UHGV virus genome: UHGV-1364187
Source of the DNA: a virus
Length of the DNA stretch: 64,000 nt
Strand: one strand, 5' to 3'
This document shows, in pieces, positions 4,737 through 46,617 of the stretch; position 1 is the first letter of the stretch; every line of letters begins with the position of its first letter. The position numbers and the translations under genes are program-made. The notes beneath the pieces are model-generated. The model saw only the letters and a list, made by a program, of their open reading frames with translations, was not told the origin of the DNA and made no database searches.

Positions 4737-6320
4737 ATGCAAGTTGTTCATGAAACAGTTATTAAAGATATAGTAGATATTCTTTCAGATTTAAAAGATA
4801 ATAAATCATTAGAAAATTTACTCAAAAATAGTAAACGTGGTGGAATGAAATCTATCGCTCAAGCAAGTTCAAATCTTACTTTAACTTATCCATGTCTTGT
4901 GTCTAACTCACTAAGTATTGATAGTGTAAGTATGATTTCTAAAGCTATGGAAAGAAAGAATGCACAAATGATTCAGATGTTACTTAGTGCATATCAATCT
5001 AAAAAACTTAATGGTGATGAAGAATTTGATCCTATCAAATATCTTCAAAAATTCCATAAAAACTTGAATATTGATTATAATGTAAGTGTTGATAGTATCT
5101 TAGATACAGTAGATAAAGTTGTTAAATTGGCAGAATCTGCTGGTATGTATGTTGATACTGTTCAATATATTCCAGAATCACAACAAATTAAATATATTAA
5201 AGAACAATCTAAACAAGATAACACTTTACCAGATATGATTAGTGAATCTAGTGTTGCTTCATATAAGATTTCTAAAAATAATATGTTTGGTAAGACTGTT
5301 GTATTACAAGAGAGAACAGATTACACAAATGGGTTAGGATTTAATGATAATAGAAACGATCCTACACTTTTAAATCCAACTGTAACAAGAGATGGTATAG
5401 AAGATGTAGCAAAAGGTGATGATGAATTTTTATCAATTGCAAAAGACTATTGGAATGTTCAGAATGCAATGAATAAGAATAAATACGATACAAATAAAGA
5501 AAGACGAGAAGCAGAAAAACATGAATTTGAAAAACAGAAAAATAATAGAGAAGTAGAAAGAAATAATAGAGAAAGACAAAAACATGGTCTTGGTATTACT
5601 GTAGATAAAGCTAAATATTTAAATACATCACAACAAACAGCACAAGGAAGAATTGCACAATTACAAAATGTAGATGTAAAGAAAGCTAACGAATTAGTAG
5701 GTACTCCTATTATGGTTACAGTTCATGTAACTAATAAAGAAGGATTACTAGATCCAATTTCATTCTTAATTGCTGTAAAATCTAAGATTTACCCATTAGA
5801 CTCTAAAGATATTATCCAAAGAGTTATCACTAAGAATAAAGATAAGAACTTCTTTGGTAAAATTGTTAAAGTTGCTACTGGGGAAATTTCATTTGTTAGA
5901 GATTTCTTATTTGCAATTGACCAAGCTAAATTAGATTCTTTATCTCAATCTAGAAAAGGAAATTCATCTAAACTTTGGAGAGTATTAGAAAGAATGGCTA
6001 TGAAATCTAAATTCTCTAGAGCTATTGGAAAACAAAATGAATATATGGCTATTACTACTCTTGTAATGTCACAAGAAGAAGTAGAGTATATTAAGAAATA
6101 TGCTAATATGGATATGGAAAAAGAAGCAATAGCTAAAGTAATTGTAGATGCGTATAATCTATTGTGTCTTGTTATTGTAGATGAAACTAATGAAACAGCT
6201 AAGTTCTTATTCAATTCAGATCAAGAATTATTTGAAGAATTGAGCTTCAATCAATTAGAAAGAGAAGCTACAGATGGATCATATAGAAAGATGGTAAATC
6301 TTATTACAAAAATGAGATAA
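4737..6320 (+). CDS. Hypothetical protein of 527 aa with a central Lys/Arg/Glu-rich coiled-coil-like segment.
   Basis: Long ORF preceded by the cassette and followed by a hairpin. Confidence 0.8.
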   Translation: MQVVHETVIKDIVDILSDLKDNKSLENLLKNSKRGGMKSIAQASSNLTLTYPCLVSNSLSIDSVSMISKAMERKNAQMIQMLLSAYQSKKLNGDEEFDPIKYLQKFHKNLNIDYNVSVDSILDTVDKVVKLAESAGMYVDTVQYIPESQQIKYIKEQSKQDNTLPDMISESSVASYKISKNNMFGKTVVLQERTDYTNGLGFNDNRNDPTLLNPTVTRDGIEDVAKGDDEFLSIAKDYWNVQNAMNKNKYDTNKERREAEKHEFEKQKNNREVERNNRERQKHGLGITVDKAKYLNTSQQTAQGRIAQLQNVDVKKANELVGTPIMVTVHVTNKEGLLDPISFLIAVKSKIYPLDSKDIIQRVITKNKDKNFFGKIVKVATGEISFVRDFLFAIDQAKLDSLSQSRKGNSSKLWRVLERMAMKSKFSRAIGKQNEYMAITTLVMSQEEVEYIKKYANMDMEKEAIAKVIVDAYNLLCLVIVDETNETAKFLFNSDQELFEELSFNQLEREATDGSYRKMVNLITKMR

Positions 6321-24421: not shown

Positions 24422-24543
24422 AATAAACGACTCCTTTAAATTTATATTATACTTTATTACACTAATATAATATATGATTATATATTTGTACTTTTACAAA
24501 TATATAATAAAAGAGAAGACTATTTGTCTTCTCTTTTATTATT

Positions 24544-25425
24544 TTATTTTTCACAATATGGATCATATTCAATTCCACGTAAAGCATGTTTCAATCCTAA
24601 TGGTAATAAATCAGTATCTAAATTAATACATTCTATATTTTTAATATGTGGTCTTAATGAATTGATGAATGGGTTAGATCTTCCTCCATCAATATACATA
24701 AATATTTCTCTAGAAATACATTTATAATTACGATTCATAATACAAACCATTTCATTTATATACTTAATCATATCTCTATCAGATTCAAAAATTTCATACC
24801 ATTTTGGAATGTATATTTTTGGCGATAACTCTGCTTGTTCATCTAATGTGATTTGATGTGCATATACAACTCCAAGTTTTAATATATCATTATCATCTTC
24901 TTTAAAGTCTTAAACAACTTTATCATAATCATCATATATAATCATATCAACAGTAGTATTTTCTGATTTAAGTTTATTGATTTCCTTTTCACTTCCAACA
25001 TATGTAGTATTTCCAGTAACATTAGATACAATTTTTAATAATTTAGTACAAGAATTTGTAATAATACATATATTATTAAAGATGATGATATCTCTTATAT
25101 GTTGTAATTTCAGATTTATATCTGTTTGATTATTTGATTTTTATTACAATATAATTTGTCTCTTCTTTGTATATATACTGTAATGAACAGTTAATAACTC
25201 CAATAATACAGTCTTATGGGTCATTCTTGGTGACATAATTAACATATTTTGATTATGTTTGTATGAATAAAATATATTATTCTTAAATGTATTAATATTA
25301 TATGGATATTATCCATATGTATGTAATTCTACTCTTCTAAATAGAGATAAAAAACAATTTAAATTGTCTTCTCCATCTTTTAAAATCTTTTCAAATATTT
25401 TTTTTTCTGAATCGCTAATTTTCAT
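24544..25425 (-). pseudogene. Disrupted gene carrying an in-frame TAA and frame breaks.
   Basis: The start MKISDSEKK at 25425 has a good SD, but the frame ends after 39 aa. The downstream frames encode ...GSEKEINKLKSENTTVDMIIYDDYDKVV-stop-DFKEDDNDILKLGVVYAHQ... and continue into the ORF 24544..24771. No ORF of 60 aa or more spans 24772..25420. Confidence 0.45.
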
Positions 25426-33035: not shown

Positions 33036-33105
33036 GATTAGGATGACCTAATCTTAAATCTTCAACATGTATGTAAATATAACTCATAGAAGGGAGAGTA
33101 ATATA

Positions 33106-34551
33106 ATGAACTATAAGCGTTTAAAAATAGAATTATTAGATCCAGATAGATTGGTAAAAGTTAACAATTTACCAGAGATATCAGATCCAATATTCTTTAA
33201 GAGAGATAATATTCCTACTGAAAAAGGTTTATTGTCTAATGAGTTATTTGGTAATACTATATACGAAAGAGCTAATATATTTGCGTATATAGATCTTGGT
33301 GATTATTTTATTAATCCATTGATATTTAAAACTCTATGTAAACTAAATGCTAAGTTTAAAGATGCTGTTCATGGAACAAAATACTTTAAAATAATAGATG
33401 GTGATTTAGTAGAAGATATGAATGGTGATACTGGATTGGTTTGGCTTAAAGAAAACTTTTCTAAAATTAAATTTAAGAAAACTACATCTGAAAAAAGAGA
33501 TGTGAATATCGAATTTATAGAAAAGAATAGAAATCTAGTATTTATGAACAAACTAATAGTATTACCTCCATATTATAGAGACGTTGATACATCTAATGGT
33601 AGAACTAGTGTAGGTGGAGTAAATAAGATATATAATCTTATATTATTATCTGTAAGATCATTAAAAGAAACACAAGATTATGGATTAAATATATCTGATT
33701 CTATTAGAGGAAGAATACAGGATCAAATTATTGGTGTGTATAACTTCTTTACTAAGGGAGATGATATGACAACAGGTATTGTTTCAGAAAGTGCTGGTTT
33801 ATCTAAGAAAATGGGATTAGTTCGTAGAGCATTATATGCTAAAACTGCTGACTATGGAGATAGACTTATTATATCTTCTGCTGATATCAATTATGATAGA
33901 ATAGATGATATGATTGTAGATTTAGACCATTGCGGTCTTCCATTATCAGCATGTCTGTCTAATATGTTCGGCTTTATAATGTTCAATGTAAAACGTTTCT
34001 TTGAAAATGAATTTTCTTCTCCAAAATATCCATATATAGATAAGAATGGGGAATTAAATTATGTAACAGTAAAGGATCCAAACTTAGCATTTTCAGATGA
34101 AGTTATTAAACATGAATTGGAAAGATTCATTAAGGGATATTCTAATCGTTTTATACCTATAGAAGTTCCGAATGAAGAAGGAAAGAAAATCTATATGAGA
34201 TTTAAAGGACGTAATAAAGTATTAACTAATGAAGATGATATGGATGATAAAACTGGTATTATTAATCGTAGATTAACATGGTGTGATGTTTTTTATATGG
34301 CTGCTGTTGAGTCTGCTAAAGATAAACATGCACTTTTAACACGTTATCCACTAAATGACTATTTTGGTCAAGTGCCAAATAAGATACATGTGTTATCTAC
34401 TATTAAGACAGAAAAAGTAATACTAGATGGACAAATATATCCATACTATCCATATATAAGAGAAGAAATGATTGGGACAGATACTTCTAATATGTTTATA
34501 GATACACTTCAAATATCAAATCTTTTATTAAAGGGACTAGAAGGTGACTTT
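33106..34551 (+). CDS. Multisubunit RNA polymerase beta-prime, N-terminal subunit, exon 1.
   Basis: Alignable to bacterial beta-prime: NELFG, VLPPYYRDVD (VLPPDLRP), KKMGLVRRALYAKTADYGDRLII ([24 protein letters not shown]), DHCGLPLSACLSNMF (HQCGLPKKMALELF), LLTRYPLNDYFGQ (LLNRAPTLHRLGIQ). Ends ...KGLEGDF. SD AAGGGAGAG at the ATG at 33106. Confidence 0.7.
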
Positions 34552-35917
34552 AAAATAACCCATTGGAGTCATCTCTGTTGTTATAAACAACTAAAACAAA
34601 AACCTCTTTAACTGCTGGAAACTCCTTAGAGCTAAATAAACTACAACGTAATCTGTAAAGATAAGCGTGAATGTTTGAAAATTATTTAGATTGGACAATC
34701 AGCAGCCAAGTTATCAATTATAATTTAACAATAAATGAAATTATATAAGTGATAGTAATACATATTACTATACTAAAATATATAAGGAGGTATTGTTATG
34801 AATGATAATTTCATAGTACCAGCATTTATTGTTAAAGAAAAAAGTAAGAGAAGAATTTATGGAACATCTTTTACAAAAAGAACAAGAACTTATATTTTAT
34901 GGCTACACTATATTTGAATATCCAGAAGAATGGAGACCTATAGAATGCTTTGATATTAAAAAAGGATTATACTTAATATCTAATTATGGTCGTGTGTATA
35001 GTATGCAACACAATGTGAATTATCGGTTTTACCTAATGATGGTTACAGACAAGTTGTATTACAAACAAAAGACAATAAAAGAAAGACATATTCCATACAT
35101 AGATTAGTTATATATACATTCATTCCAAAAACTGATGAAGATATAATAAATCAAAGAGATTATATTAATCATAAGAATCTTCATAGAGATTGTAATTTCA
35201 CATGGAATCTTGAATATGTAACACCTAATGAGAATACTATACACGCTATAATTAATAATGCCATTGGTGAAGATTATTCTTATGAATATAGTGGAAATTG
35301 GAGTAAAGGTGAAAGAACATTCGGTGAAAATAACGGAATGTCAGAGTGGACAGAAGAACAAGTTCATATTATATGTCAAGCATTACAAGATGGGAAAATC
35401 TACAAAAGATGCATTAACTTTAGCTGGAATTCCTGTAACTGATAACGCTATTTATAATGTAAGTCATATTGTTCAAGGTAAAAGGTGGAAGTATATTTCT
35501 AGTCAGTATAATATTCAACAGAAATGGAAGATAACTGATAAATCCGATTTTGTAATTCCAGTATGTGAATTGTTAGAGAAAGGTTATAGTCCATCTGAAA
35601 TTTATGAATTACTTCCAGATATTCTTGGTAAAAGAGATAATGTATTACCGTTTATACGAGGTATTAAAAGACGTAAATATTATACTAATATTAGTAAGAA
35701 TTATAATTGGTAAAAGGTTCAACGACTATCGAAAAGACATGTGCAAACATGGAACTTAGTAGAGTACACTTTATATAAAGTGGAAATGGGAGGCTTCTCT
35801 ATAAAGAGATGAAGATATAGTCTATCCGATATAGAAATATATCGCTATACTTATACGGATATTATAAATATTTCGTTATTTATAAAAATGATAGTCGTAT
35901 AAGTATTAAATTCCGAA
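34552..35917 (+). mobile_element. Group-I-like intron carrying a homing-endonuclease gene, inserted in the DFDGD codons of beta-prime.
   Basis: The 5' exon ends in U (GACUUU). The internal guide CCCATTGGAGTC at 34559..34570 can pair with the 5' exon (GGAGUC with GACUUU, P1, terminal U.G) and with the 3' exon start (CCCAUU with GAUGGG, P10). Joining the exons restores GDFDGDQ...YTLEAN. Confidence 0.6.
34798..35713 (+). pseudogene. HNH homing endonuclease (NUMOD4 plus HNH plus C-terminal HTH) disrupted by about three frameshifts.
   Basis: EEWRPIECFDIKKGLYLISNYGRV (NUMOD4), ..DGYRQVVLQTKDNKRKTYSIHRLV..INHKNLHRDCNFTWNLEYVTPNEN (HNH) and EEQVHIICQALQDGKSTKDALTLAGIPV...KRWKYISSQY lie in three different frames, with breaks at A6, T4 and A4 runs. 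Confidence 0.65.
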
Positions 35918-36115
35918 GATGGGGACCAACTTTCGAGTAAAGTAGCGTATACGCTTGAAGCTAATGATGAGCTTGATAAGTATATGAATTCTAACTCATA
36001 TTATATCGACATGGGTGGAAATTGTATTCGTACAACGACCAACGAAGCAATTCAAGCTATATACTCTTTAACAAAAGTTGTAGATAAATCGAAATTAACA
36101 GATCCAATATTCTAA
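35918..36115 (+). CDS. RNA polymerase beta-prime N-terminal subunit, exon 2.
   Basis: DGDQLSSKVAYTLEANDELDKYM aligns with [23 protein letters not shown] of bacterial beta-prime. Stop at 36113..36115. Confidence 0.6.
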   Translation, partial: DGDQLSSKVAYTLEANDELDKYMNSNSYYIDMGGNCIRTTTNEAIQAIYSLTKVVDKSKLTDPIF

Positions 36116-36125
36116 AATATAATAA

Positions 36126-36158
36126 TAGATTACACTATTTTTAGTGTAATCTATTTTT
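36126..36158 (+). terminator. Hairpin AGATTACACT...AGTGTAATCT plus a T7 run.
   Basis: 10-bp stem followed by TATTTTTT. Confidence 0.65.
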
Positions 36159-42390: not shown

Positions 42391-44016
42391 CTATATTAGT
42401 AATAAATATATTAATACTTCTTCCATAATAATAGAAGGTATGTTTTCTACAATAGTCCCATTGAGTTCTGGATCATCATAATCTACAATCTTAAAAGTAC
42501 TTACTGATAAAGTTGCAATGAAAGATAGAATATCTTCTACAAATCTATCATGTTCTTTTCTAGATTGAGAATATCTCATTTTCATCTCTTTCTCTATATT
42601 AGGGTCATAATACATATTGCTATCAACTCCAACAATATCATTCATTGAGAATACGTTAGATAGACCTACATATTTCTCTATTACATATTTAAAGTAGATT
42701 GAGTTAGATAGTTCTGTATATTCTTTTTTATTGATATTCTTCTTCCTAATAAGCTTAACAACATTACCACTTATTATATATGGTAATATTCTTAAGTTAT
42801 GGCCTTCTAATAATCTCTTAGCAGCTATTACTAGTTTGATATATTCTTCTATATTATCAAGAGATTTGATACTCATTGGATCTCCAAAATACTTCATGAA
42901 TAGATTGAATACTAATTCTTTTTGAAATTTATTGATCTTTCCTCCGAACTCTTTATAATAGAAATTTATTTCGTCTTGTTCAAAAGGACCATATAACATT
43001 TCTATTTGCTTCATTGTATATGAGCAGTTTACATCATTTTGCAATAACAATGATTCATCATTACGAATTAATAAACTCTCATATTTATCAAACTCACTAT
43101 TATTATCTTCATCTCTGTTAGATAATGATAAAGGAATGAAACTGTATTCCCATGTAATACCAGTAATTTGAAATCCATTGTTGTTATTGATAGAACCAAA
43201 GTTCAAACTAACAATGTTCTTATTATATACATACTTAGGTAATACATTTAAGAGAATATTATCTATACATGATAATGCATGTGTAGTAACGTTTTTACTT
43301 CTGATATCTTGTTGATCCCACAATCCAGTATCACGCTTATATGAAGTATTAACATTTGTAATTGCTGTTTCATATAACTTATTGTATAGATCAACATCAC
43401 TGTACAATTCGATATTCAATAATATATCACATATTGTAAGAATAAAGTTATTGTCATCTTCTGAAGATCTCATATACATAAAATGACATGCTAATGGAAT
43501 GATCATATTCATTAACATACTAATTCTCATTAACAGTTTAGCATGTCTATTAGTATAACAAATAGCTGAATTGTTATTCTTATATACTAAGTCTATTATA
43601 TAATTATCATCGTTCATATTCTTAACTTTCCATAGAATAGTAGGAGATAATATATATCTTTGTATATCAGCTAAAAAATTGTCTTTGGTATAAGAAGCTT
43701 CATAATCGATAAGATATTTTATTTTAGAATAAATCATAAATAACTCTTTATCTTGATCATAGAACTTCTCGAAATAGTTTAAATAATGACACATATGCTC
43801 TTTCATCTCTTGAGTTGCATAGCATCGTTTGGACGTTAGAATAAAATAATCTATAGATCGTTTATCTTCATCATCTAATCCATAGAAATCGAAAATAGGA
43901 GCAACAAATGCTCCTTTACAATGTGTGAATAACATATCATCCTCATTAGGAATCCAATCATCCACTTTAGGATTGTTATAAGATCTCTCTTCTGATATTG
44001 TTGCTGGTACTATCAT
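42391..44016 (-). CDS. Hypothetical protein of 541 aa with an MIVPATISEE N-terminus.
   Basis: ORF with SD AAGGAGGTTTTATAAAATG. Confidence 0.75.
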   Translation of the reverse strand: MIVPATISEERSYNNPKVDDWIPNEDDMLFTHCKGAFVAPIFDFYGLDDEDKRSIDYFILTSKRCYATQEMKEHMCHYLNYFEKFYDQDKELFMIYSKIKYLIDYEASYTKDNFLADIQRYILSPTILWKVKNMNDDNYIIDLVYKNNNSAICYTNRHAKLLMRISMLMNMIIPLACHFMYMRSSEDDNNFILTICDILLNIELYSDVDLYNKLYETAITNVNTSYKRDTGLWDQQDIRSKNVTTHALSCIDNILLNVLPKYVYNKNIVSLNFGSINNNNGFQITGITWEYSFIPLSLSNRDEDNNSEFDKYESLLIRNDESLLLQNDVNCSYTMKQIEMLYGPFEQDEINFYYKEFGGKINKFQKELVFNLFMKYFGDPMSIKSLDNIEEYIKLVIAAKRLLEGHNLRILPYIISGNVVKLIRKKNINKKEYTELSNSIYFKYVIEKYVGLSNVFSMNDIVGVDSNMYYDPNIEKEMKMRYSQSRKEHDRFVEDILSFIATLSVSTFKIVDYDDPELNGTIVENIPSIIMEEVLIYLLLI

Positions 44017-44919: not shown

Positions 44920-46617
44920 TTACATGTATTTATTCTCTGCAGTATTTCTACAGATAAATTGATTTGATGTATAAATCAATGTAAGAATTTTAGCAATAGC
45001 ATCTAATACTGCACAATCTGATTCAATAGATGCAATAATATCTTTATTAAATTCTTTCTTTACGACATCGTATACTACAGTTCCTTTTTGTTCAATGATA
45101 TTATTAATAATCCCATCAGAATCTGTAATATTCGAATTTGAATATAAGATTTTAATAAGATTTCTATATGATCTATTGATAATATTCTTTATAGTATCTT
45201 TATGATAATCATTAGAATAATCAATTACATATGATGCGTATAATCCTTCAACATTAGATGCCATACCATAACCATGTTCATCAGCAGATCTAATATTAAG
45301 AACAGCATCTTCTACTAAATCTCTTACAGAATCTCTATCAGCAGCACTAATACCACCAATATGAAATTCTACTAAATTTCCTTTAAGAGATTGAATTCTA
45401 CGTTTCATCTCACCAATTTCATGAGCATTTGCTCCTTGTTCTTTTCGTTTCTTTAATTCTGTCTCTAAATAGTTTAAGTGAACATTGAATGTTTTTGAAT
45501 AGTCTCCATTTTCATCTCTCATTTCTTTTGGATTGACAAATTTGGATTTATCAGCATCACATTCAAATACTTCACATGTACCGTAGAAATCTTTTGAAAT
45601 ATTATCTAATGTTGGAGCTAATCCCTTTTTAACCATTTCTTCATAGATCTTCTTATCAATAGATTTCTGAATAGGTTTTGCTCCAATCATTTTAATGATA
45701 TCCATATATTGTTCTGTTTGTGTAATATTCGTAACTACACATAATGGAAGTCTACTCTCTGATGATTGTTGAGAGAACATTCCAATGATATTGTCTATGT
45801 AATTACTCATATCCCTAGAAATACTTGGTACCAAGATTACAGTTGGTACAATCATATCTGGTTTATTTTCATTGATAGCTGTAACAATATTATCATAGAT
45901 AATCTTATCAAAGAATTGAGCTTGTTCTAATGTATTGATAGGATCAATAAATGCATAGATTCTTGGTTTAGGAATAATACATTTATTCTTAGATGTATTT
46001 ACAAATGATGGGTCCATATATCCACATTGTAAATTCATACCGTTATATTCTTTTAAAGCTGTTACTCCATTAGAAGATACAGCTACGTCGATGAATACAC
46101 CTGAACCAAATTTAGCATAAATATCTCTTAATGTTTCAGCAATTCTTACGTTTCCATTAGTAGATACCATTGCAATTTTATATACAGCATCTAAATCTAA
46201 TTCTTTAGATCTAGTTTTAATTTGTTTAATAATATCATTAACTACACTTTGGAATTGTCTCATAACTTCAAAAGGTGTTAAATCTTTAGATATAGAGCTT
46301 TTTAACAATTCTTCAAAGATAAGATGTGAAAGTAAAATAGCTGATGTTGTTCCATCTCCAACTTCTTTTACTACAGATCTTGTAATTTCATAGATATCTT
46401 CTTTAGTCGAACTTTCAATATCTCCTATAACTTCAATTTTACTCAAAATAGACTTACCGTCTTTTGTATATCTTGTAAGAGTTTGAGTACCTCCACTGAT
46501 TGTAGTGTTAGATCCATCAGGACCAAAAGATAACTTTAAACAATCTGCTAAGAATTTTAAAGTTTCTAATCTAACCTCTACTAATTTTTTACCTGATACT
46601 ACATTTGATCTAATCAT
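44920..46617 (-). CDS. GroEL/Cpn60-family chaperonin, phage-encoded.
   Basis: The N-terminal region aligns with GroEL: VEVRLETLKFLADCLKLSFGPDGSNTTI, TKDGKSILSKIEV, and the ATP-binding VGDGTTSAILL (GDGTTT in GroEL). 565 aa. Confidence 0.7.
   Translation of the reverse strand: MIRSNVVSGKKLVEVRLETLKFLADCLKLSFGPDGSNTTISGGTQTLTRYTKDGKSILSKIEVIGDIESSTKEDIYEITRSVVKEVGDGTTSAILLSHLIFEELLKSSISKDLTPFEVMRQFQSVVNDIIKQIKTRSKELDLDAVYKIAMVSTNGNVRIAETLRDIYAKFGSGVFIDVAVSSNGVTALKEYNGMNLQCGYMDPSFVNTSKNKCIIPKPRIYAFIDPINTLEQAQFFDKIIYDNIVTAINENKPDMIVPTVILVPSISRDMSNYIDNIIGMFSQQSSESRLPLCVVTNITQTEQYMDIIKMIGAKPIQKSIDKKIYEEMVKKGLAPTLDNISKDFYGTCEVFECDADKSKFVNPKEMRDENGDYSKTFNVHLNYLETELKKRKEQGANAHEIGEMKRRIQSLKGNLVEFHIGGISAADRDSVRDLVEDAVLNIRSADEHGYGMASNVEGLYASYVIDYSNDYHKDTIKNIINRSYRNLIKILYSNSNITDSDGIINNIIEQKGTVVYDVVKKEFNKDIIASIESDCAVLDAIAKILTLIYTSNQFICRNTAENKYM

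What the first reader, a model, noticed from the sequence alone, without database searches (positions are those of the whole stretch)
33106..36115. RNA polymerase beta-prime fragment split by a group-I-like intron exactly inside the catalytic DFDGD motif
The ORF at 33106 aligns with bacterial beta-prime from the clamp region to the HQCGLP region, but ends ...KGLEGDF followed by junk and a stop. About 1.37 kb downstream, a different frame reads DGDQLSSKVAYTLEANDELDKYM..., which continues the beta-prime alignment ([23 protein letters not shown]). Joining at 34551 and 35918 recreates the universally conserved DFDGD magnesium-binding motif. The junctions behave like a group I intron: the 5' exon ends in U, and 8 nt into the intron the sequence CCCATTGGAGTC can pair with both the 5' exon end (P1: GACUUU with GGAGUC, terminal U.G wobble) and the first six nt of the 3' exon (P10: GAUGGG with CCCAUU). 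A frameshifted HNH homing endonuclease occupies the intron interior. The reconstructed protein stops 65 aa after DFDGD, so beta-prime is additionally split at the protein level as in phiKZ/AR9-type phage RNAPs, and its C-terminal partner and the beta pieces lie outside this window. One oddity: the last intron nucleotide implied by the protein join is A (...CCGAA followed by GATGGG), not the canonical terminal G.
Basis: partly seen in the sequence, partly recalled or inferred. Interest (0 to 1): 0.75.

Follow-up and report, generated by a model that had tools for sequence, protein, structure and literature searches.

The report
Self-splicing intron inside phage RNA-polymerase active site
A giant gut phage's own RNA-polymerase gene is cut in two, in the middle of the codons for its catalytic DFDGD motif, by a group I intron carrying a decayed homing-endonuclease gene; this is a known kind of element in such phages, except that this copy ends in A instead of the near-universal G.

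Summary
Exon 1 (33106-34551, ending GGT GAC TTT) and exon 2 (35918-36115, starting GAT GGG GAC) join into a 547-aa protein. It aligns end to end with the N-terminal beta-prime subunit of jumbo-phage virion-type RNA polymerases. An intron-less relative (80% identical) reads LEGDFDGDQLSSK without a break.

The 1366-nt insert (34552-35917) is a group I intron of the Twort/SPO1 phage type:
- P1 and P10 covary with the exon codons across 12 relatives.
- P3, P6 and P7 covary across 11 relatives.
- Both halves of the core hit Rfam RF00028, but below its threshold.
- A 136-nt stretch of the core is about 79% identical to the Twort nrdE intron.

An HNH/NUMOD4 endonuclease gene with three frameshifts sits in the P6a loop.

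Introns in these genes are already known. Staphylococcus phages Madawaska and Machias and Yersinia phage phiR1-37 carry one 6 nt downstream in the same motif. About a fifth of 120 metagenomic relatives are interrupted at exactly this site.

The real oddity is the last intron base, A35917. Three of 14 distinct lineages have A there, although the G-binding pair in P7 is unchanged. Exon 2 stays under strong purifying selection (dN/dS 0.08). Splicing itself was not tested.

The parts
33106..34551 (+). Exon 1 of the virion-type RNAP beta-prime N-terminal subunit (482 codons, ends GGT GAC TTT = G-D-F). The ribosome-binding site AAGGGAG lies at 33090-33096.
34552..35917 (+). Group I intron, 1366 nt, subgroup IA-like with P7.1/P7.2. 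Its last base is A35917.
34552..34611 (+). Read-through tail of the unspliced ORF (KITHWSHLCCYKQLKQKPL, then a stop at 34609-34611). Unspliced RNA would give a 501-aa protein lacking two of the three catalytic Asp residues.
   Evidence: P0001
34543..34573 (+). P1 hairpin. The 5' exon strand GGTGACTTT (34543-34551) pairs with the internal guide GGAGTCATC (34565-34573), with U34551.G34565 at the splice site.
34559..34564 (+). P10 part of the internal guide sequence (CCCATT). It pairs with GATGGG at 35918-35923.
34577..34591 (+). P2 hairpin
34603..34608 (+). P3 5' strand (CCTCTT). It pairs with GGGAGG at 35788-35793.
34613..34704 (+). P4-P5-P5a domain. P4 is TGCTGG 34613-34618 with TCAGCA 34699-34704.
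34711..35713 (+). P6a stem. The 5' strand 34711-34725 pairs with the 3' strand 35699-35713. The stem closes around the endonuclease gene, whose last codons form the 3' strand.
34798..35713 (+). HNH/NUMOD4 homing-endonuclease pseudogene. Its ribosome-binding site AAGGAGG is at 34784-34790 and its ATG at 34798. It has three frameshifts relative to the intact 301-aa homologue in L114: in the A-run 34838-34843, near 35002, and in the A-run 35395-35398.
35722..35728 (+). P7 5' strand A[C]GACTA. G35724 pairs with C35822, the guanosine-binding pair.
35738..35782 (+). P7.1 (35738-35751) and P7.2 (35767-35782) hairpins
35788..35823 (+). P3 3' strand (35788-35793), P8 (35794-35814), J8/7 and the P7 3' strand TAGTCT (35818-35823)
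35827..35917 (+). P9 (35827-35844, GAAA loop), P9.1 (35847-35857 with 35896-35906) and the 3' tail TAAATTCCGAA (35907-35917) ending in the omega nucleotide A35917
35918..36115 (+). Exon 2 (65 codons starting GAT GGG GAC = D-G-D, plus the stop at 36113-36115)
36124..36155 (+). Terminator-like hairpin followed by a T-run, directly after exon 2

Best explanation
33106-36115 is one gene. It encodes the N-terminal beta-prime subunit of a jumbo phage's multisubunit (virion-type) RNA polymerase. A mobile group I intron interrupts it between the second and third codons of the catalytic DFDGD motif.

Inferred mechanism, from established group I chemistry:
1. The pre-mRNA folds into the P1-P9.1 ribozyme.
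2. Exogenous guanosine, bound at the G35724-C35822 pair of P7, attacks after U34551 (the U.G pair of P1).
3. The freed 5' exon stays on the internal guide sequence.
4. P10 (CCCAUU with GAUGGG) aligns the 3' exon, and the exons are ligated to give GAC UUU GAU GGG GAC.
5. This restores DFDGD and yields a 547-aa subunit that ends at the usual jumbo-phage beta-prime split site.

The intron spread by homing, driven by an HNH/NUMOD4 endonuclease encoded in its P6a loop. In this copy three frameshifts have inactivated that gene.

The intron ends in A, not G. I infer that it still splices, probably less efficiently at the second step, with P10 (and perhaps a 2-bp P9.0) fixing the 3' splice site.
For: Shown here:
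- The join is right. Intron-less relatives have GD[FY]DGDQ without a break (P0002, 80% identical: LEGDFDGDQLSSK). D481, D483, G484 and D485 are invariant in 43 homologues. Bacterial beta-prime aligns across the junction.
- Rfam RF00028 matches the two core halves on either side of the ORF: 25.2 bits at E 7e-4, and 27.8 bits at E 1e-4. An ORF-less homologue at the same site scores 42.9 bits at E 1e-9.
- P1 and P10: 91% of cells pair and 5 pairs are compensatory. The wobble base of the Gly codon covaries with the guide sequence (AU 3, UA 3, CG 2, GC 1).
- P3, P4, P6 and P7: 97.8% of cells pair and 6 pairs are compensatory, against 25-50% in slid registers.
- The core is 79-85% identical to introns in Twort nrdE (which carries I-TwoI at the same loop position), SPO1-like phages, phiR1-37 and LPJP1.
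- The homologous gene is annotated as intron-split in phages Madawaska and Machias.
- The endonuclease is HNH type (phrog_59, E 1.6e-29; NUMOD4). Intact 300/301-aa copies exist in L114 and L115.
- Exon 2 cannot start on its own, and a terminator follows it.
- Exon 2 has dN/dS 0.08, with pS 0.68, between the two firm terminal-A lineages.

Inferred only: the chemistry, the splicing competence and the timing.
Against: - The last intron base is A35917. A terminal G is a defining feature of group I introns, and the G-binding pair in P7 shows no compensating change (G-C in 11 of 11).
- No Rfam hit reaches the gathering score.
- No spliced product was found by exact look-up.
- No RNA data exist.
Confidence: 0.88

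Rival explanations
1. The intron is a splicing-defective, decaying copy. The G-to-A change at the last position blocks exon ligation, so this phage genome, or this allele, makes no functional beta-prime N subunit.
For: The terminal base is A while the G-binding pair is unchanged. The endonuclease gene in the same intron is already a pseudogene with three frameshifts. From general knowledge of Tetrahymena ribozyme mutants, a terminal G-to-A change strongly impairs the second step.
Against: The same state occurs in L114 (79% identical host protein, intact endonuclease) and in L160/L161 (two samples). Exon 2 is intact in all of them and is under strong purifying selection between the window and L114 (dN/dS 0.08 with near-saturated synonymous sites). 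P10 shows a compensatory change between the window and L114. The rest of the 64-kb window is densely coding with long intact ORFs. A natural self-splicing group I intron without the terminal G is on record in Coxiella (paper title seen).
Confidence: 0.08
2. Both splice sites lie one nucleotide downstream. The 5' exon then ends ...GACUUUA and the intron ends in the canonical G35918, giving GAC UUU AAU GGG GAC = DFNGD.
For: This register keeps the reading frame and restores a terminal G. In L160 the same slide gives DYDGD exactly, because that intron starts with G.
Against: It would replace the central catalytic Asp with Asn. That Asp is invariant in 43 homologues and in all multisubunit RNAPs. 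The cleavage would fall after an A-U pair rather than the U.G wobble that is invariant in 12 of 12 introns. The P1/P10 register slid by +1 pairs only 37% of cells.
Confidence: 0.03
3. There is no splicing. The two ORFs are separate polypeptides, or exon 2 is an untranslated remnant, and the 1.37-kb insert is just an endonuclease gene cassette.
For: The endonuclease has its own ribosome-binding site and ATG. Jumbo-phage RNAP subunits are known to be split at the protein level.
Against: Exon 2 has no start codon or ribosome-binding site, and its frame is closed 5 codons upstream. The three catalytic Asp residues would lie on two chains. The ribozyme core with covariation flanks the ORF. P10 covaries with exon-2 codons.
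Confidence: 0.01

Closest known systems
Introns in the virion RNAP beta-prime N gene of Staphylococcus jumbo phages Madawaska and Machias, and of Yersinia phage phiR1-37 (g178)
   Same: Same gene and the same catalytic motif. The group I core is homologous (ACTGCTGGAA..., CAACGACTATCGAAAAG, GATATAGTCTA). A homing endonuclease is present in Madawaska and phiR1-37. Introns in these phages' RNAP genes are described in bioRxiv 10.1101/2020.12.14.422802.
   Different: Their insertion site is DFDG|D, 6 nt downstream of the window's DF|DGD. Their endonuclease gene lies upstream of P3 rather than in P6a. They end in the canonical G. The host proteins are only about 30% identical.
Staphylococcus phage Twort nrdE intron carrying HNH endonuclease I-TwoI (AF485080)
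   Same: A 136-nt stretch of the P3-P6 core is 78.6% identical (E 9e-22). The HNH endonuclease gene, with its own ribosome-binding site, is inserted in the P6a loop, and the stem is closed by AT-rich strands. The endonuclease N-terminal region is 34% identical.
   Different: The host gene differs (ribonucleotide reductase). The Twort endonuclease is intact and shorter (243 aa), and the intron ends in G.
Coxiella burnetii 23S rRNA intron Cbu.L1917 (Raghavan et al. 2007, J Bacteriol 189:6572)
   Same: It is a natural group I intron that lacks the canonical terminal G; the paper's title was seen. From memory, not verified here, its terminal base is A and it still self-splices.
   Different: It sits in a bacterial rRNA gene, belongs to a different subgroup, and is unrelated in sequence.
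Group I introns of Bacillus jumbo phage AR9/PBS1 RNAP subunit genes
   Same: Same phage group (two multisubunit RNAPs with split beta and beta-prime). The PBS1 homologue of this gene is also interrupted (its match stops at residue 419). The literature notes frequent introns in these genes.
   Different: The insertion site differs (around residue 419, not in DFDGD).

Membership tests
Group I intron (Rfam RF00028) | P1 helix between the 5' exon end and the internal guide sequence, with U.G at the 5' splice site | tested here: met
   GGUGACUUU pairs with GGAGUCAUC. The U.G pair is invariant in 12 of 12 relatives, and 3 P1 pairs carry compensatory changes.
Group I intron (Rfam RF00028) | P10 pairing of the guide sequence with the start of the 3' exon, contiguous with P1 | tested here: met
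   CCCAUU pairs with GAUGGG. The Gly-codon wobble base covaries with the guide sequence.
Group I intron (Rfam RF00028) | Conserved catalytic core: P4-P6 domain and P3-P7-P8 domain with the P3/P7 pseudoknot | tested here: met
   RF00028 model positions 60-139 match 34613-34751. A second hit at 35710-35844 aligns the model's 3' part (P8, J8/7, P9) and skips 116 central positions. For P3, P4, P6 and P7, 97.8% of cells pair and 6 pairs are compensatory.
Group I intron (Rfam RF00028) | Guanosine-binding G-C pair in P7 next to a bulged nucleotide | tested here: met
   A[C]GACUA with UAGUCU. The G-C pair is present in 11 of 11 introns, and the flanking pair covaries A-U with G-C.
Group I intron (Rfam RF00028) | Terminal guanosine (omega G) as the last intron nucleotide | tested here: not met
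   The last base fixed by the protein join and by the P10 register is A35917. L114 also has A, and so does L160/L161 (though its junction can slide by 1 nt). Eleven other distinct introns at this site have G.
Group I intron (Rfam RF00028) | Score at or above the family's gathering threshold (50 bits) | tested here: not met
   27.8 and 25.2 bits for the two halves split by the 0.9-kb ORF. The ORF-less relative L129 scores 42.9 bits.
Group I intron (Rfam RF00028) | Guanosine-dependent self-splicing | not testable with these tools
   This needs in-vitro transcription and splicing, or RNA from infected cells.
HNH homing endonuclease (I-HmuI / I-TwoI type, NUMOD4 + HNH) | NUMOD4 motif and HNH catalytic region | tested here: met
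   Pfam NUMOD4 at E 3e-7. 34% identity to I-TwoI.
HNH homing endonuclease (I-HmuI / I-TwoI type, NUMOD4 + HNH) | Intact open reading frame | tested here: not met
   Three frame changes relative to the intact 301-aa homologue of L114. The same sequence is present in the source contig L321.
Jumbo-phage multisubunit RNAP, beta-prime N-terminal subunit (virion type) | Full-length homology to annotated subunits, including the DFDGD catalytic loop | tested here: met
   One tblastn piece covering residues 6-541 to LPJP1 rpoC1. Also matches subunits annotated as virion RNAP beta-prime in Madawaska, N1M2 and phiR1-37 g178 (a structural protein). phrog_2986 at E 2.8e-75. DFDGD exists only after the join.
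Jumbo-phage multisubunit RNAP, beta-prime N-terminal subunit (virion type) | Polypeptide ends shortly after the catalytic double-psi beta-barrel (the common split site) | tested here: met
   The protein stops 62 residues after DFDGD, as in homologues of 536-590 aa. The split site is described in PMC7598289.
Jumbo-phage multisubunit RNAP, beta-prime N-terminal subunit (virion type) | Packaged in the virion | not testable with these tools
   This needs virion proteomics.

The most novel reading that the evidence does not exclude
The window's intron, L114 and probably L160/161 would be natural group I introns that splice accurately in an essential phage gene without the terminal guanosine, while keeping a standard G-binding pocket. 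The 3' splice site would then be set by P10 (and a 2-bp P9.0) alone. Exon ligation might be deliberately slowed, so that production of the virion polymerase subunit is throttled or timed. This would be a second, independent and recurrent natural exception to the terminal-G rule, after Coxiella.
Probability: 0.55. Interest if true: 0.55.

Novelty: new member of a known kind. Interest (0 to 1): 0.4.

Why it matters
For annotation, the gene must be joined across 34551/35918. Otherwise the phage appears to lack a catalytic RNAP subunit, and gene callers report a 501-aa truncated protein, as in the public protein collection (P0001).

Biologically, it is a clear example of mobile introns targeting the most conserved codons of an essential enzyme. 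At least four insertion sites fall within the 15 nt that encode DFDGD across related phages, and about a fifth of 120 metagenomic relatives are interrupted at this exact site.

The terminal A recurs in lineages whose downstream exon remains under purifying selection. That gives ribozyme biochemists natural substrates for asking how exon ligation can work without the terminal G.

Tried and rejected
- Whole-window and multi-locus Rfam scans at gathering score found nothing. An E-value scan of the Madawaska and Machias loci also found nothing. RF00028 is insensitive for this subgroup, and the ORF splits the match.
- Megablast of the region against isolate phages gave no match.
- A single-protein scan of IMG/VR found no close relative.
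- A degenerate P1/guide-sequence pattern scan of IMG/VR returned mostly chance matches; only 3 of 120 loci were real.
- The metagenome-contig scan gave a single distant locus, L323.
- I enumerated alternative splice registers that would restore a terminal G. Using G35915 or G35918 with the normal 5' site gives frameshifts and early stops. Sliding both sites by +1 gives DFNGD. Using G35903 gives GDLLNSEDGD. All were rejected on the invariance of DFDGD and on the P1/P10 register.
- I looked for a compensating change in the P7 G-binding pair, as in engineered A-U mutants. There is none.
- An exact look-up of the spliced protein, in both the DFDGD and DFNGD versions, found nothing in the 15-billion-protein collection.
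- The Coxiella papers (PMC2045182, PMC3187410) are not held, so their details rest on memory.
- The upstream 459-aa ORF was tested as a possible beta-prime partner and shows no similarity.
Full report
**Observation**

- An ORF with a good ribosome-binding site starts at 33106 and ends its homology at ...LLKGLEGDF (GGT GAC TTT, last base 34551). It then runs 19 unrelated codons to a TAA at 34609-34611.
- At 35918 a different frame reads DGDQLSSKVAYTLEANDELDKYM... to a stop at 36113-36115. A terminator-like hairpin follows at 36124-36155.
- The exon-2 frame is closed by a TAA five codons upstream, and there is no start codon in between. Exon 2 therefore cannot be translated on its own.

**The join**

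- The joined 547-aa protein aligns in a single tblastn piece (residues 6-541, E 5e-77) with Listeria phage LPJP1 rpoC1. It aligns likewise with Staphylococcus (S6, DC4, SA1), Bacillus (BpSp, Goe21) and Fusobacterium jumbo-phage homologues.
- It matches PHROG 2986 end to end (E 2.8e-75).
- It aligns across the junction with the NADFDGDQM loop of bacterial beta-prime.
- A search of 5.8 billion proteins returned 1770 relatives. The window's own read-through ORF is P0001, on a 256,505-bp ENA contig from a metagenome assembly; the only other contig carrying P0001 comes from a human gut metagenome.
- Uninterrupted relatives (536-590 aa) all contain GD[FY]DGDQ. The closest, P0002 (80% identical), reads LEGDFDGDQLSSK, and its DNA is GGA GAT TTT GAT GGA GAC without a break.
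- D481, D483, G484 and D485 are invariant in 43 aligned homologues.
- The nucleotides flanking both boundaries allow no other join that yields DFDGD.

**It is a group I intron**

- An E-value Rfam scan of 34400-36100 gives two RF00028 hits that bracket the internal ORF. Model positions 60-139 (P4-P6) match 34613-34751 at 25.2 bits, E 7e-4. The model's 3' part (P8, J8/7, P9) matches within 35710-35844 at 27.8 bits, E 1e-4, skipping 116 central model positions.
- Neither hit reaches the 50-bit gathering score. A 441-nt ORF-less intron at the same site in a relative (L129) scores 42.9 bits at E 1e-9.
- I located every helix: P1 34543-51/34565-73; the P10 guide 34559-64 with 35918-23; P2 34577-91; P3 34603-08/35788-93; P4 34613-18/34699-704; P6a 34711-25/35699-713; P7 35722-28/35818-23; P7.1; P7.2; P8; P9 with a GAAA loop; P9.1.
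- Across 12 homologous introns at this site, P1 and P10 pair in 91% of cells, against 35-60% when slid. Five pairs carry compensatory changes. The wobble base of the Gly codon (GGN) covaries with the guide sequence (AU 3, UA 3, CG 2, GC 1). This fixes the splice junctions to the nucleotide.
- Across 11 introns, P3, P4, P6 and P7 pair in 97.8% of cells, with six compensatory pairs, against 25-50% when slid.
- A 136-nt stretch of the core is 79-85% identical to introns in 369 phage records. These include the Twort nrdE intron, whose HNH endonuclease I-TwoI sits in the same loop. The presence of P7.1 and P7.2, and this kinship, point to subgroup IA (probably IA2; this is an inference).

**The endonuclease**

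- The P6a loop holds a gene with its own ribosome-binding site (34784-90) and ATG (34798).
- Compared with intact 301-aa and 300-aa homologues in the related introns L114 and L115, the window's copy changes frame three times: in the A-run 34838-43, near 35002, and in the A-run 35395-98. It is 67-75% identical to the L114 protein over the three segments.
- The rest of the window consists of long intact ORFs. I therefore read the frameshifts as real decay rather than poor sequence, though assembly errors in the A-runs cannot be excluded.

**How common, and how known**

- Among the top 120 relatives, about 25 are truncated right after GD[YF], which is this site. A few are truncated after GG, and a few after GDYDG.
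- DNA from the recovered loci shows introns of 314-1420 nt at this exact site. The extra DNA, where present, sits in different loops.
- In isolates, Madawaska and Machias (annotated as joined CDSs) and phiR1-37 g178 (a virion structural protein, with the intron not annotated) carry a homologous intron 6 nt downstream, at DFDG|D.
- Introns in AR9-like and MarsHill-like RNAP genes are described in the literature.
- The end of the protein 62 residues after DFDGD is the common jumbo-phage beta-prime split site (PMC7598289).

**The terminal A**

- The junction fixed by the protein and by P10 makes A35917 the last intron base.
- At this site the last base is G in 11 distinct introns: L115, L128, L129, L136, L317, L318, L319, L320, L297, L324 and L326.
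- It is A in three: the window, L114, and L160/L161. L160/L161 is the same sequence in two samples. Because that intron begins with G, its junction could slide by 1 nt, so it is not a firm case.
- The G-binding pair of P7 is G-C in all of them, so nothing compensates in the pocket.
- Every alternative register that restores a terminal G either breaks the frame or turns the central catalytic Asp into Asn.
- Exon 2 is intact in all terminal-A lineages. Between the window and L114 it has pS 0.68, pN 0.13 and dN/dS 0.08. One P10 pair changed on both sides between them, U-A to C-G.
- In the window, L114 and L160, the two bases before the terminal A can pair with J7/9 (UC with GA, UU with AA, AU with AU). 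This is a possible P9.0. It rests on reading the sequences by eye and is weak evidence.
- I conclude that these introns most likely still splice, with the 3' site set by P10. A natural precedent without the terminal G exists in Coxiella (title seen; details are from memory).
- Splicing itself is untested. An exact look-up of the spliced protein found nothing.

The window does contain another polymerase component. 42391-44016 (-) is a homologue of the AR9 'non-virion RNAP subunit' BI022_gp225. No second beta-prime N copy and no second intron of this family is present in the window.

**Verdict**

This is a real group I intron with a decayed HNH homing endonuclease, splitting the DFDGD codons of a jumbo-phage RNAP subunit. 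It is a new member of a known kind. Its one genuinely unusual and recurrent feature, a terminal A instead of G, deserves a splicing assay.

Noticed in passing
window 42391-44016 (-): A 540-aa protein homologous to AR9 BI022_gp225, annotated 'non-virion RNAP subunit' (phrog_25005 at E 1.4e-13; tblastn to AR9/PBS1 at E 8e-10). From memory, this gene probably corresponds to the promoter-specificity fifth subunit that the review calls gp226. A polymerase component therefore does lie inside the window.
   Followed up: partly
window 44920-46617 (-): A phage-encoded GroEL-like chaperonin (phrog_5725, E 1.6e-56, full length).
   Followed up: no
window 24430-25420: About 1 kb without a convincing ORF on either strand, with no tRNA and no Rfam hit. 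It was not examined further.
   Followed up: no
L323 (JGI Ga0326511_10233495) 470-1210: A distant relative appears to carry two tandem group I cores inside the same motif. The layout is GGD | intron 1 (ends ...AAATCG) | an 8-9-nt micro-exon TATGATGG(A) | intron 2 (ends ...GAATAAA) | GACCAA. The second intron again lacks a terminal G, and its 5' junction is not after a U.
   Followed up: partly
L003 (Staphylococcus phage Machias) 5153-5335 and 5537-5685: Very small group I introns (about 150-180 nt) that retain only TGCTG-type P4, P6, P7 and J8/7 motifs. The second lies at DFDG|D and follows a C rather than a U.
   Followed up: no
L329 (Yersinia phage phiR1-37) 3911-5317: g178 (RNAP beta-prime, annotated as a virion structural protein) stops at GGDFDG. 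The rest of the protein resumes at GATACATTCCGA after a group I core. The intron, which holds g179, and the second exon are not annotated in the record.
   Followed up: partly
L157 (IMG/VR 3300029305_004669) 4940-6092: A further insertion site in the same motif. The intron lies after GGT GGT (GG|DYDGD) and ends in a terminal G. This makes at least four sites within 15 nt across relatives.
   Followed up: no
L128/L325, L136, L297, L002: Homologous introns at this site, and at Madawaska's site 6 nt downstream, carry their extra DNA in different loops: P6a, between P7 and P3', or upstream of P3. This suggests the endonuclease genes invaded the intron independently.
   Followed up: no
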